In this document: in pieces, positions 9,001-12,000 of the stretch
How positions within the stretch are numbered: position 1 is the stretch's first letter
Layout: each line of letters begins with the position of its first letter
Assembly: GCA_039815375.1 (NCBI GenBank)
Contig: JBCBZJ010000028.1
Location: 1 to 34,292 of the forward strand
Direction of reading: 5' to 3'
Length of the DNA stretch: 34,292 nt
Origin: Verrucomicrobiota bacterium
GTDB lineage: Bacteria > Verrucomicrobiota > Verrucomicrobiia > Opitutales > Coraliomargaritaceae
Made by a program: the position numbers

Positions 9001-12000
9001 AGGCTTTCGATTTGATGGCCTTGTTCTTGGGCAAATTGTATTCTAGCAGCGTCATCTTCACGGGTGTAACTTGTAACGAAACCAAAGTAATCGTATTGGA
9101 CGCCTTCGTAGGAGAAACTTACGATTGGTTTGAGAAAATTCAGTGAAATATTAGTCCAGACAGTCACTCTCTGTCCTTCGACTGGATCGCGCCAAGTGAT
9201 TTTAGAGTATTCGTCGCCGTAGACACTTGCACCCAACGAAATGCTTTCATGCTGATACTCGGTTGGGAGTTCCACTGGCGCGGCAGTTGCCGTAGCTGCT
9301 GTTGTTTCGTGGCTCGAAGCCGGAGCCTCTGGCCTTAGAGCTAAGGCTACCTTTCTAAAGACGATCTTTTGCGTTCCTTTATTAACGACACGTTCTTCAG
9401 TCGCGCTTTGAGCCAGCGCTTGATCGCGGTAAGCTTTATCTGCTGCTTCCTTCTTGGATCTGCGATCTTTTATGATGGCTTCCGCTTCAATATGCGTCAG
9501 GAGCTTTGGTAGGTTCGGCTCAACTGCTTCTTCTGCGAAGATTAAGTTTACCGTCATACCAAATACGACTACTGGAAGAGAGCTTAGTAATATTCTCATT
9601 TTTTAAGTTTTGTTAGGAAAAATCAGCCGTCGCCCGAGAGAGAATCAAAGATGAATGAAGGGGGCGAGGAAAAGTTCTGCTCAAAAAGCTACATCAGTAT
9701 TCCTAAATGAGCCGATAAGGACTTCTGCATAACTTTACAAATGAGCACCTTACGATAAAATGAAACAGAATAGGTAATTCTGTTTCATGGAGGAAAGCGT
9801 GTGGAAGCCACTCAATTTACATGGCCGTAACGGACAGCGAAAATACTTAAACCTAATCGAGAGAGACGCATTCTTGCGGGCCTCGGAAATTCTACCCCAC
9901 AAGAAACGGTTGTTCTGCTACGTGCTCGCCTGCACCGGATGTCGTATCTCCGAAGCTCTCGCGCTGAGCCCGAGCAACCTAGATGTGGCGGAAAGCGTTA
10001 TCATCATTGAATCCCTTAAACAGCGACGCAGAGGGGTTTACCGAGTTGTTCCCGCTCCCAAAGAGCTGATCGATCTACTTCTTGAGATCAGTGATGATCG
10101 CCCCTTCTTCGACTTCTCGAGAACCACAGCATGGAGGTTTGTCAAAAGAGTCATGAAGGAGGCCGGCATTGAAGGTGAATCGAATTCTATGCCAAAGGCT
10201 TTCAGGCATTGTTTCGGCGTTGCACATGCCCAGGCAAAGACTCCTCCGCATCTCATGCAGCGATGGTTTGGTCATGCAAAAATTGAAACGACCAACATTT
10301 ACTTAGATGCCGTCGGAGACGAAGAACGTGCCTTTGCCAGAACGATTTGGCCGTCATTTTCGGACATTGAGTAAAAAGATTTTTAGTCAAATTTCTGAAA
10401 CAGAATTACCTATTCTGTTTCACTCTCCATACGAACGTATTTTAACTAATAATTTCAATATCTTGGGGCGATGATTGAGTTCAACCAAGAGCCTATGATC
10501 GAGTTATTAAAACTAAGTTTCGAAACATCTAAACTAGTTTGCAAATACCTGTCCGATTTTAGGTAATAACCGGACACTATAAAGATGATTGATACTCAGA
10601 AATGTGCAATCTGAATCGTCCTTACCACGCTATTTTGGCCGCTTCGCGAGCCTCTTTTCCTTGGGCATCCAAGTAGATTAAAGTCGTTTCTAGTGAGGCG
10701 TGTCCCATCCAATCCTGTATCAGCCTCGGGTTTGTTTTGTGCTGCGCATGAAATACCCCAAAGGCGTGGCGAAGGCCACGCGGTGTTGCATGAGGACCGT
10801 CAATTCCGGTGATTTCCATTACTCTTTTGACTGCACGATAGCCTGTCTTTTCGGAAAAGCCCCAGATGGATTTTTTGCCGTGCCCACTGTGATGCTTGCT
10901 CAGTAAATTAACAGCCTTCTTCATCCAATTCAGTCGGACAGGGATTTCTCGATATAGGCCGCGCCGTCTTTTCTTGAGGGATTCGATGACCAGAACGCCC
11001 TCTGCTAGGTCAAAGCTTTCCAGTCTGAGGCGATGGGCTTCAGTTGGCCTGCATCCAGTGCAAAAAATTGTGTAGCAGTAGAGCTCCTTAATTGGATCTC
11101 TAAGCCCCGAAATACAGTCGCGGAAACGGGCTCTCTCCTCCGGTGTGAGATATTTTCTGAGCCCGTTTCTGTCGCGTAGTTGAAGTGACTGCAAGTGTGC
11201 CTCCGGCATGTCCGATTATTACCTATACTCGGTCAAATCACTTAAAACACTACACTGGAGATACTTACAAATCAACTAAAGCAAGATGACTAAAAGATAC
11301 GAAAAAATCGGACAGGCGAATATCTATCGTGAAAAAAAGAAAAACGGCTGCGGTCCAATTATCGGCGTAATCCTACTATTCTTTGTAGCAATGGCACTGC
11401 TCAGTGAATGCTCCGGTGCTGAACTCACAGGCAAACCGCTCGACTTGATTCTCAATGATCCTATCCCGGCCAATGCCAACAAAGGCGTGTCCAATCCATC
11501 GCGATTATCCAAAGTCAGCGGTGAACCGCGCTTGCTGATGTATGAGAAGCGCAGCGGCAATATCTCCCCTTTTCAGTTCGCAGTCGAAACCTCAAAGCAA
11601 GCCGATCGGTTGGTGATATTGGCAGCTAGCACTGAAAAGTATAAAACCCAAGCAGTTGACCATGCTCAAAAGTTAGCGAAATGGCTGGAACTCGAACTAA
11701 ATACTGTTGAGCGTGTTCAAATTATTGTCTATCAAAATGACAAAGGAGTTGGGTATTACTACTATGTTAGTGGATTAACTCATTGGGATAATGAAGGGCC
11801 TGTCTTAGCTATGAAACCAGATCAGGCTACGGCAGAGTTAGAGAAAGTCGTCTGGACTCACAAGGCTAGGCTTGCCTTGATTGAGCGTGGTGAGCACCTA
11901 GACATCCTGAATTAAGGAGGGAGCGGCACTGCTCCGAATGTAACTTCTTCGTGGAAGTCAGCTTCGTCTTGTGAATATCTGCCAGAAAGAGCCGTTTCGA

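What a model noticed while it worked through the whole genome (the two positions that open the first line are those of the whole stretch)
9761..11235. Two 195-aa tyrosine recombinases, each boxed in by its own pair of inverted lox-like 27-bp sites
On the conjugative-element contig C9, beside an RHS operon, two convergent genes for catalytic-domain-only tyrosine recombinases (g00314, g00315; 195 aa, 45% identical) are each flanked, from the start codon to 22-46 bp past the stop, by two copies of a 27-bp site made of 11-bp inverted arms around a 5-bp asymmetric spacer; the two copies have the spacer in opposite orientation (AGGTA / TACCT) and the arms differ between the two genes. I read them as self-inverting switches: each enzyme flips its own 0.65-kb gene segment. 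If active they are two natural, mutually orthogonal, very small Cre/lox-like pairs that could serve as compact inversion tools.
Evidence so far: find_repeats on C9:9300-11600: arms 9761-9787/10396-10422, 27 nt, 100% complementary; arms 10550-10576/11209-11235, 85%. Genome-wide scan for 11+AGGTA/TACCT+11 palindromes with <=2 arm mismatches: these 4 sites and no other. Both start codons touch a site. Of 24-25 loci with homologues (39-53%) from 185,579 species genomes, one (Puniceicoccaceae, 53%) has the same arms on both sides with another spacer, again inverted (GTATA / TATAC); the others (mostly Proteobacteria) have no flanking inverted repeat of 10 nt or more.
(Added by a program. Inside this text positions count along the whole contig: contig position 1 is position 1 of the stretch shown here. 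"Call 12" and the like, gene names such as g00115 and contig names such as C1 are that model's own, and its searches are not shown. The text may have been shortened before it was handed on; [...] marks where a part breaks off. The agent that wrote the report below was given it as the finding of a first reader that could run no searches.)

Follow-up and report, generated by a model that had tools for sequence, protein, structure and literature searches.

The report
Tiny self-flipping promoter switch family
Two 0.66-kb DNA cassettes each carry a very small recombinase gene and an outward-pointing promoter between inverted target sites; they belong to a widespread, apparently undescribed family of on/off switches for neighbouring secreted-protein genes, one relative of which is found flipped in nature.

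Summary
The four 27-bp sites and two ~190-aa tyrosine recombinase genes are real. I found 45 boxed cassettes with 28 different spacers. In a 172-gene scan, matched site pairs were inverted 61 times and direct 0 times. A sigma70-like promoter points outwards just inside the downstream site (20 of 31, then 10 of 14 held-out cassettes). The gene beyond the upstream site usually encodes a secreted protein and often lacks room for a promoter. In one relative (43% identical) the cassette is flipped exactly at the sites in 1 of 8 genomes, placing the promoter on that gene. So these are Hin-like phase switches run by a FimB-sized enzyme on simple Cre-like 11-5-11 sites. Here both lie 'off', facing each other; flipping would point them at an RHS-toxin operon and a 209-aa membrane protein gene. 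Two helix residues co-vary with the arm bases, supporting orthogonality. No flip was seen in this window's own copies, and nothing is tested at the bench. The architecture is known; this enzyme family, site and code were not found in ten literature searches.

The parts
9761..9787 (+). Cassette 1 upstream recombination site, 11-5-11, spacer AGGTA
   Evidence: family consensus arm TGAAACAGAAT
9734..9761 (+). Candidate promoter of recombinase 1 (TTTACA-16-TAAAAT), outside the cassette, its -10 ending on the first base of the site (possible autorepression)
   Evidence: best hit (3 hits against 2.8 expected, so weak alone); same register in L009 and L089
9799..10374 (+). Recombinase 1, 191 aa from GTG (195 from ATG 9787); catalytic domain only; R53 K78 K137 R140 H163 Y172 in 195-aa numbering; recognition residues R-T
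   Evidence: GGAGG at 9789-9793
10367..10393 (+). Candidate outward promoter of cassette 1 (TTGAGT-15-CAAATT), a weak match
   Evidence: positional pattern; closest boxed relatives have TTGCCA near this register but fail the pattern
10396..10422 (-). Cassette 1 downstream site, inverted copy (spacer TACCT on +)
10423..10549 (.). 127-bp AT-rich spacer (34% GC) into which both outward promoters now point
10550..10576 (+). Cassette 2 downstream site, type-2 arms, spacer AGGTA
10582..10609 (-). Candidate outward promoter of cassette 2 (TTGCAC-16-CATCTT), ending 5 nt before the site
   Evidence: both hexamers unchanged in the ~92% identical relative in run X4
10622..11194 (-). Recombinase 2, 190 aa from TTG (195 from ATG 11209); recognition residues E-K
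   Evidence: GGAGG at 11204-11200
11209..11235 (-). Cassette 2 upstream site, inverted copy
509..9599 (-). Inferred target of cassette 1: 289-aa signal-peptide protein, 233-aa TSP3-repeat protein, 2084-aa RHS protein with Tox-SHH nuclease tip, 96-aa candidate immunity protein, 294-aa protein; first ATG 161 nt from the site
   Evidence: homologues of the 289-aa protein lie beside the upstream site in L009, L089, L010, L277, L293
11286..11915 (+). Inferred target of cassette 2: 209-aa protein with an N-terminal hydrophobic segment, ATG 50 nt from the site
   Evidence: homologues beside cassettes in L262 and L086; no family found

Best explanation
Each cassette is a self-contained phase-variation switch. 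The small tyrosine recombinase binds the two 11-bp arms of each of its two sites and exchanges strands within the matched spacer. Because the spacers are inverted, it flips the 0.61-0.63 kb between them, which holds its own gene and an outward-facing promoter just behind the stop codon. As assembled, both promoters point into the 127-bp gap (off). After a flip, promoter 1 faces the 289-aa/TSP3/RHS-toxin operon and promoter 2 the 209-aa gene (on). The recombinase has only its ribosome-binding site inside, so it is transcribed from whichever flank it faces, which could bias the switch towards off. Different arms, read by different helix residues (R-T against E-K), keep the two switches independent and prevent deletion between their identical spacers. 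Shown: anatomy, intact catalytic residues, the inverted-spacer rule, promoter position, and a flip in a 43% identical relative. Inferred: activity of these two copies, transcription from the promoters, control of the named targets, and orthogonality.
For: Inverted spacer-matched pairs 61 (63 less 2 seen twice), direct 0, unmatched 8 among 172 genes. 28 different spacers in 45 boxed cassettes. L281/L296 is inverted against L280/L297 with breakpoints at the sites and about 4 kb of collinear flanks; 1 of 8 in that family, and in it the promoter faces the signal-peptide gene whose ATG lies in the spacer. Outward promoter pattern in 20 of 31 cassettes (shuffles mean 0.97, max 5) and 10 of 14 held-out ones (mean 0.43, max 3), against 0, 2 and 1 of 31 in three control positions. 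First ORF reading away has a hydrophobic N-terminus in 20 of 30 cases on the upstream side and 3 of 19 on the downstream side. Catalytic R, K, R, H, Y kept in 186-187 of 187 proteins. Helix residue 108 is R in 90 of 90 with C at arm position 6 and not R in 3 of 3 with G. Residue 109 is K/R in 7 of 8 with C4, M in 6 of 6 with T4, and neither in 79 of 79 with A4.
Against: No joint or flipped form in the four runs laid on this stretch; the likely source run spans it in one contig. No swapped flanks among the first 30 boxed cassettes. The one flipped case is a 6-bp-spacer subfamily in an 87%-complete, 370-contig assembly, so a misassembly is not excluded. Cassette 1's outward promoter is a poor match, its three closest boxed relatives fail the pattern, and 161 nt before the target ATG leave room for a separate promoter. 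Cassette 2's arms are imperfect. The promoter pattern was chosen on the first 31 cassettes, and 8 of the 14 held-out ones are close kin. The residue-arm counts are not phylogenetically independent. One genome (G931) holds three cassettes with the same spacer and the same or near-identical arms, so orthogonality is not a family rule.
Confidence: 0.75

Rival explanations
1. The cassette is a minimal mobile element or exchangeable module whose ends are the inverted sites; inversion is a by-product and the outward promoter only affects whatever it lands beside.
For: A ~92% identical relative of cassette 2 spans 10527-11237 with unlike DNA on both sides, and another contig matches only 9761-9797. 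Patchy distribution: 0 of 8 congeners, 2 of 100 other family genomes. Many neighbours are mobile-element genes such as ArdA, ArdC and RadC. 10 of 45 boxes are longer than 0.7 kb and several carry cargo.
Against: Conservative recombination between inverted sites cannot excise (established chemistry; PMC10250229 passages). The same target families stay linked to cassettes across distant lineages. No second copy of either cassette in the genome.
Confidence: 0.1
2. The family are switches, but these two copies are locked or decaying relics, cassette 2 above all, and no longer control their neighbours.
For: Two arm mismatches in each site of cassette 2; single orientation in the source contig; weak promoter 1.
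Against: Both ORFs are intact with full catalytic sets; cassette 1 sites are perfect; spacers are intact in both pairs; assembled contigs drop rare variants.
Confidence: 0.08
3. The flip is real but serves mainly to switch the recombinase itself, or acts on sites elsewhere such as element resolution; the neighbours have their own promoters.
For: A strong inward promoter abuts the upstream site of cassette 1. A plasmid branch of the family sits beside parA/repA with at most one detectable site (9 plasmid loci fetched), which looks like a resolvase.
Against: No further strong site in the genome. Eleven listed targets start only 14-50 nt from the site. In the flipped relative the target's ATG is inside the spacer.
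Confidence: 0.07

Closest known systems
Salmonella H segment / Hin (flagellar phase variation)
   Same: Invertible segment between two inverted sites whose orientation points a promoter at or away from the neighbouring operon (PMC9368917, passages). That the hin gene lies inside the segment is recalled; the abstract says 'Hin-composed DNA segment'.
   Different: Hin is a serine invertase needing Fis and an enhancer (recalled). This is a tyrosine enzyme, the segment is 0.66 kb, the sites are symmetric 11-5-11 palindromes, and the targets are secreted proteins and an RHS operon.
FimB/FimE and the fimS switch of E. coli
   Same: Tyrosine invertases of about 200 aa (NCBIfam models of 200 and 198 positions) that flip a promoter; catalytic-domain-only build (recalled).
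   Different: Scores of 30-37 bits against cut-offs of 221-222. First catalytic His position is K or R in 187 of 187. Gene inside the segment and long palindromic sites, against 9-bp repeats with genes outside and a need for IHF/Lrp (recalled).
Cre/loxP and Cre-type recombinases
   Same: Symmetric arms around an asymmetric spacer whose orientation sets the outcome; matched spacers (PMC10250229, passages).
   Different: Cre-type enzymes are 300-400 aa with 13-8-13 sites, and that paper's search filtered for these. Here about 190 aa with no core-binding domain and 11-5(6)-11 sites. Cre is a distant fold match (rank 47, E 0.015), XerA/XerH the nearest.
Xer/dif
   Same: Closest solved structures and profiles; 11-6-11 site geometry (recalled).
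   Different: No core-binding domain; one enzyme on symmetric arms; paired inverted sites; far below the XerA/C/D cut-offs.
Self-flipping recombinase-plus-promoter cassettes noted earlier in this scan
   Same: Same architecture (unchecked AI notes).
   Different: Those findings span 1.1-1.6 kb, in gut Firmicutes or with Cre-like enzymes; a look-up by this protein's sequence found none.

Membership tests
Tyrosine recombinase superfamily | Catalytic-domain fold with R-K-(H)-R-H/W-Y residues | tested here: met
   PF00589 above cut-off; model pLDDT 82.9 matches XerA/XerH, TM 0.70-0.72; residues kept, first His replaced by K/R
Cre-type recombinases | 300-400 aa with core-binding plus catalytic domains | tested here: not met
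   190-191 aa; the model has only the catalytic domain
Cre-type recombinases | 13-8-13 target site | tested here: not met
   11-5-11 here, 11-6-11 in a subfamily; cut positions unknown
Cre-type recombinases | Works without host factors | not testable with these tools
   needs an assay
FimB/FimE-type invertases | NCBIfam PRK09870/PRK09871 above cut-off | tested here: not met
   30-37 bits against 221-222
FimB/FimE-type invertases | About 200 aa, catalytic domain only | tested here: met
   no search for longer fused forms was run
Xer (XerA/C/D/S) | Equivalog models above cut-off; core-binding domain | tested here: not met
   best 62 bits against 220
Invertible promoter (inverton), Hin-like | Inverted recombination sites with matched cores around the segment | tested here: met
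Invertible promoter (inverton), Hin-like | Outward promoter in the segment | tested here: inconclusive
   family-wide positional pattern met; weak in cassette 1; no RNA data
Invertible promoter (inverton), Hin-like | Both orientations occur | tested here: inconclusive
   met in a 43% identical subfamily, 1 of 8 genomes; not seen for these copies
Hin/Gin serine invertases | Serine recombinase domain | tested here: not met
   only PF00589
RIT elements | Three recombinase genes in tandem inside one pair of terminal repeats | tested here: not met
   one gene per box, two convergent boxes; definition partly recalled, name from PMC8138268 passage

The most novel reading that the evidence does not exclude
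A large natural library of about 190-aa tyrosine recombinases, little more than half the size of Cre, that recombine simple 27-28-bp sites with freely variable spacers without host factors. Arm specificity would be set largely by two residues at the start of one helix, giving compact, mutually orthogonal and re-targetable invertases. In this genome one of them would make an RHS antibacterial-toxin operon phase-variable.
Probability: 0.3. Interest if true: 0.85.

Novelty: new variant of a known kind. Interest (0 to 1): 0.66.

Why it matters
It gives a function, a target site and a candidate recognition code to a common class of 'phage integrase family' proteins of about 190 aa (1,440 database hits) that size-filtered recombinase surveys skip. 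It points to phase variation of secreted proteins and an RHS toxin operon in marine and soil Verrucomicrobia. If the enzymes work in other hosts, they are very small orthogonal switches for genetic memory and inversion circuits. A cultured strain with three cassettes (Luteolibacter algae KCTC 22040) makes this directly testable.

Tried and rejected
1. An apparently flipped upstream segment (L027 against L032; score 63, shuffle maximum 31) was rejected: L027 has a second, divergent recombinase gene, from whose side the segment lies the usual way round. 2. Recent duplication of the two window enzymes: sisters in a FastTree tree (support 91), but separated by starred branches once 21 closer proteins were added; rejected. 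Their shared spacer recurs elsewhere in the family. 3. A -10 box in the spacer as a general feature: spacers vary too much. 4. Swapped flanks among the first 30 boxed cassettes: none by DNA or translated comparison. 5. Contigs of four runs: no joints; X2 and X3 give only short low-depth pieces, which say nothing either way. 6. Viral contigs: 2 homologues passed the 172-gene cut among 80 loci; the site pattern gave 2 stretches, not followed up. 7. No tRNA or Rfam match. No family or fold for the 289-aa and 209-aa targets. 8. The weight matrix misses type-2 arms, including cassette 2's own pair, so 'no site' (41 of 172) and 'single' (45 of 172) are upper bounds. 9. Ten literature searches, including the arm sequences themselves, found no description; the library lacks most subscription papers. 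10. Genus- and order-level searches around Luteolibacter and L109 were not run, so more flipped cases may exist there.

Full report
Observation. Cassette 1 (9761-10422) has two perfect 11-5-11 palindromes, cassette 2 (10550-11235) two with 2 arm mismatches each, and in both the spacer AGGTA reads inwards at either end. Each gene has a GGAGG just inside its upstream site, 5 nt before an in-frame GTG (9799) or TTG (11194), so the proteins are probably 191 and 190 aa (P0001 is 191 aa). They are 46% identical. They hit only PF00589, fall far below all NCBIfam cut-offs including FimB/FimE and Xer, and fold as a bare catalytic domain closest to XerA/XerH. The catalytic R, K, R, H and Y are kept in 186-187 of 187 family members; the first His position is K (168) or R (19), never H. 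I did not search for longer fused forms.

The family. From genome, metagenome and viral scans I took 172 distinct homologous genes. A weight matrix trained on one upstream site per locus found 30 genes boxed by an inverted spacer-matched pair, 30 with such a pair upstream, 3 with a pair downstream, 23 with unmatched sites, 45 with one site and 41 with none. In 28 or so of the upstream class the pair brackets 100-145 bp. Among site pairs of equal spacer length, 63 were inverted matches (61 distinct, two being seen from a neighbouring gene), 0 were direct matches and 8 unmatched. The matrix misses divergent arms, cassette 2's among them, so boxes are undercounted. Adding cassette 2 and 14 cassettes from later searches gives 45 boxes with 28 different spacers; 35 enclose 584-697 bp and 10 are longer, several with cargo genes. 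Spacers that change freely between loci but stay matched and inverted within a locus are what selection for inversion predicts. Named boxed records are mostly Verrucomicrobiota, the upstream class mostly Proteobacteria. Nine plasmid loci sit beside a WGR gene and parA/repA with at most one detectable site and look like resolvases (inference). The family is patchy: 0 of 8 congeners, 2 of 100 other family genomes, 9 of 400 order genomes.

What the switch carries. Behind the stop codon, a TTG-type -35 and a TA---T-type -10 point outwards, ending 1-10 nt before the downstream site, in 20 of 31 cassettes (shuffles mean 0.97, maximum 5), against 0, 2 and 1 of 31 at three control positions. The pattern was chosen on those cassettes; on 14 held-out ones it matched 10 (mean 0.43, maximum 3), 8 of them close kin. 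Both window cassettes match: cassette 2 clearly (TTGCAC-16-CATCTT, both hexamers unchanged in a ~92% identical relative), cassette 1 weakly. Beyond the upstream site the first ORF reading away has a hydrophobic N-terminus in 20 of 30 cases, against 3 of 19 beyond the downstream site (crude rule). Eleven such genes start only 14-50 nt from the site, and two carry PEP-CTERM tails. Here those neighbours are the 289-aa first gene of the RHS operon (161 nt away) and the 209-aa gene (50 nt away). Homologues of the first sit beside the upstream site in five other loci, of the second in two.

Evidence of flipping. In one verrucomicrobial family, 8 of 9 matches are boxed cassettes with a 6-bp spacer that contains the target's ATG. 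Seven have the target behind the upstream site; L281 has it behind the downstream site, in line with the promoter. Against its congener, the 680-bp cassette (81.5% identical) is inverted with breakpoints at the sites while about 4 kb of flanks are collinear. These enzymes are 43-44% identical to the window's. This is one case in a fragmented assembly. No flip was seen among the first 30 boxes or in contigs laid on this window, and one apparent flip in the upstream class was rejected.

Specificity. For 93 of 187 proteins a site was found without the matrix. Residues 108 and 109 (191-aa numbering), at the start of helix 108-121 of the model, are the top-scoring columns for arm positions 6 and 3-4. 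R108 goes with C6 in 90 of 90 and non-R with G6 in 3 of 3. K/R109 goes with C4 in 7 of 8, M with T4 in 6 of 6, and neither with A4 in 79 of 79. Kin are not independent, but the K/R cases fall on several branches. Enzyme 1 has R-T and enzyme 2 E-K. This ties the enzymes to the sites and fits orthogonality, as does the survival of identical spacers in direct orientation between the two cassettes (inference). Co-resident cassettes differ in arms or spacer in G015, G198 and G930, but three in G931 share the spacer and nearly the arms.

Mechanism. Each enzyme flips its own gene plus outward promoter; both cassettes now lie off, promoters facing each other across 127 bp. The recombinase is transcribed from the flank: for cassette 1 a TTTACA-16-TAAAAT ends on the first base of the site, as in two relatives, which suggests autorepression. 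The excess of off states may reflect biased switching (inference). Cassette 2's relative in other surroundings shows that cassettes move, by an unknown route; this keeps the mobile-module rival alive.

Comparison and novelty. It works like the Salmonella Hin segment (PMC9368917, passages), with an enzyme of FimB/FimE size (details recalled) on Cre-like simple sites (PMC10250229, passages), and is a member of none of these. [quoted passage not shown] The classification in PMC8138268 (passages) treats core-binding and catalytic domains as present in all members, and the Cre-type survey filtered for 300-400 aa; I did not open their supplements, which may list members. PMC7672463, PMC11551731 and the other hits were seen as search listings only. 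Ten searches, one with the arm sequences, found no description of this family, within an open-access library. Verdict: a real feature, a new variant of a known kind, interest 0.66.

Noticed in passing
window 11287-11316: An exact 13-nt copy of cassette 2's outer arm plus 2 bases (11304-11316) lies in the start of the 209-aa gene, possibly the remains of a degenerate third site or operator; the 13-mer occurs only twice in the genome.
   Followed up: partly
window loose end at 11237, run X4: The relative of cassette 2 is followed after about 20 nt by the same 9 bases that begin the 289-aa gene, so it may front an RHS-type operon there; only 9 bases are visible.
   Followed up: no
L091, L104, L026, L128, L118, L040 and others: 30 mostly proteobacterial homologues have both inverted sites upstream, most around a 100-145-bp segment: a second, classic inverton layout with no clear promoter direction in my scan.
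   Followed up: partly
L096, L101, L114, L124, L127, L133; plasmid loci L263-L271: A branch with one 5-bp-spacer site far upstream and a 6-bp-spacer site at the gene start, and plasmid copies in WGR-recombinase-parA-repA modules; probably resolvases with an operator.
   Followed up: partly
L136, L022, L102, L291, L292, L294, L295: Boxes with cargo of 0.7-6 kb, including a Dam-type methyltransferase with a DndB-like gene (L136) and an ankyrin/prepilin cluster (L022).
   Followed up: no
L102, L046, L126, L136, L155, L156, L078, L292: A conserved 74-aa ORF starts 20-45 nt outside the upstream site, converging on a DUF6082 gene; homologues also follow the targets in L250 and L254.
   Followed up: no
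L274-L282: In the 6-bp-spacer subfamily the target's start codon is inside the spacer and the outer arm encodes its first residues, so the flip may also control translation.
   Followed up: partly
G000 C50:18260 and C2:60338: Paralogues of the 289-aa gene lie near other RHS genes in this genome without a recombinase cassette.
   Followed up: no
window 15123-32231: Mobile-element genes: arm-binding integrase, NikA plus MobP relaxase, TrwC/MobF relaxase, VapC, antirestriction protein, methylase, ParB, VirD4-like coupling protein.
   Followed up: no
L272, L273: Two viral-collection contigs carry family-like sites, in L272 as a direct pair 305 bp apart; no recombinase check was made.
   Followed up: no
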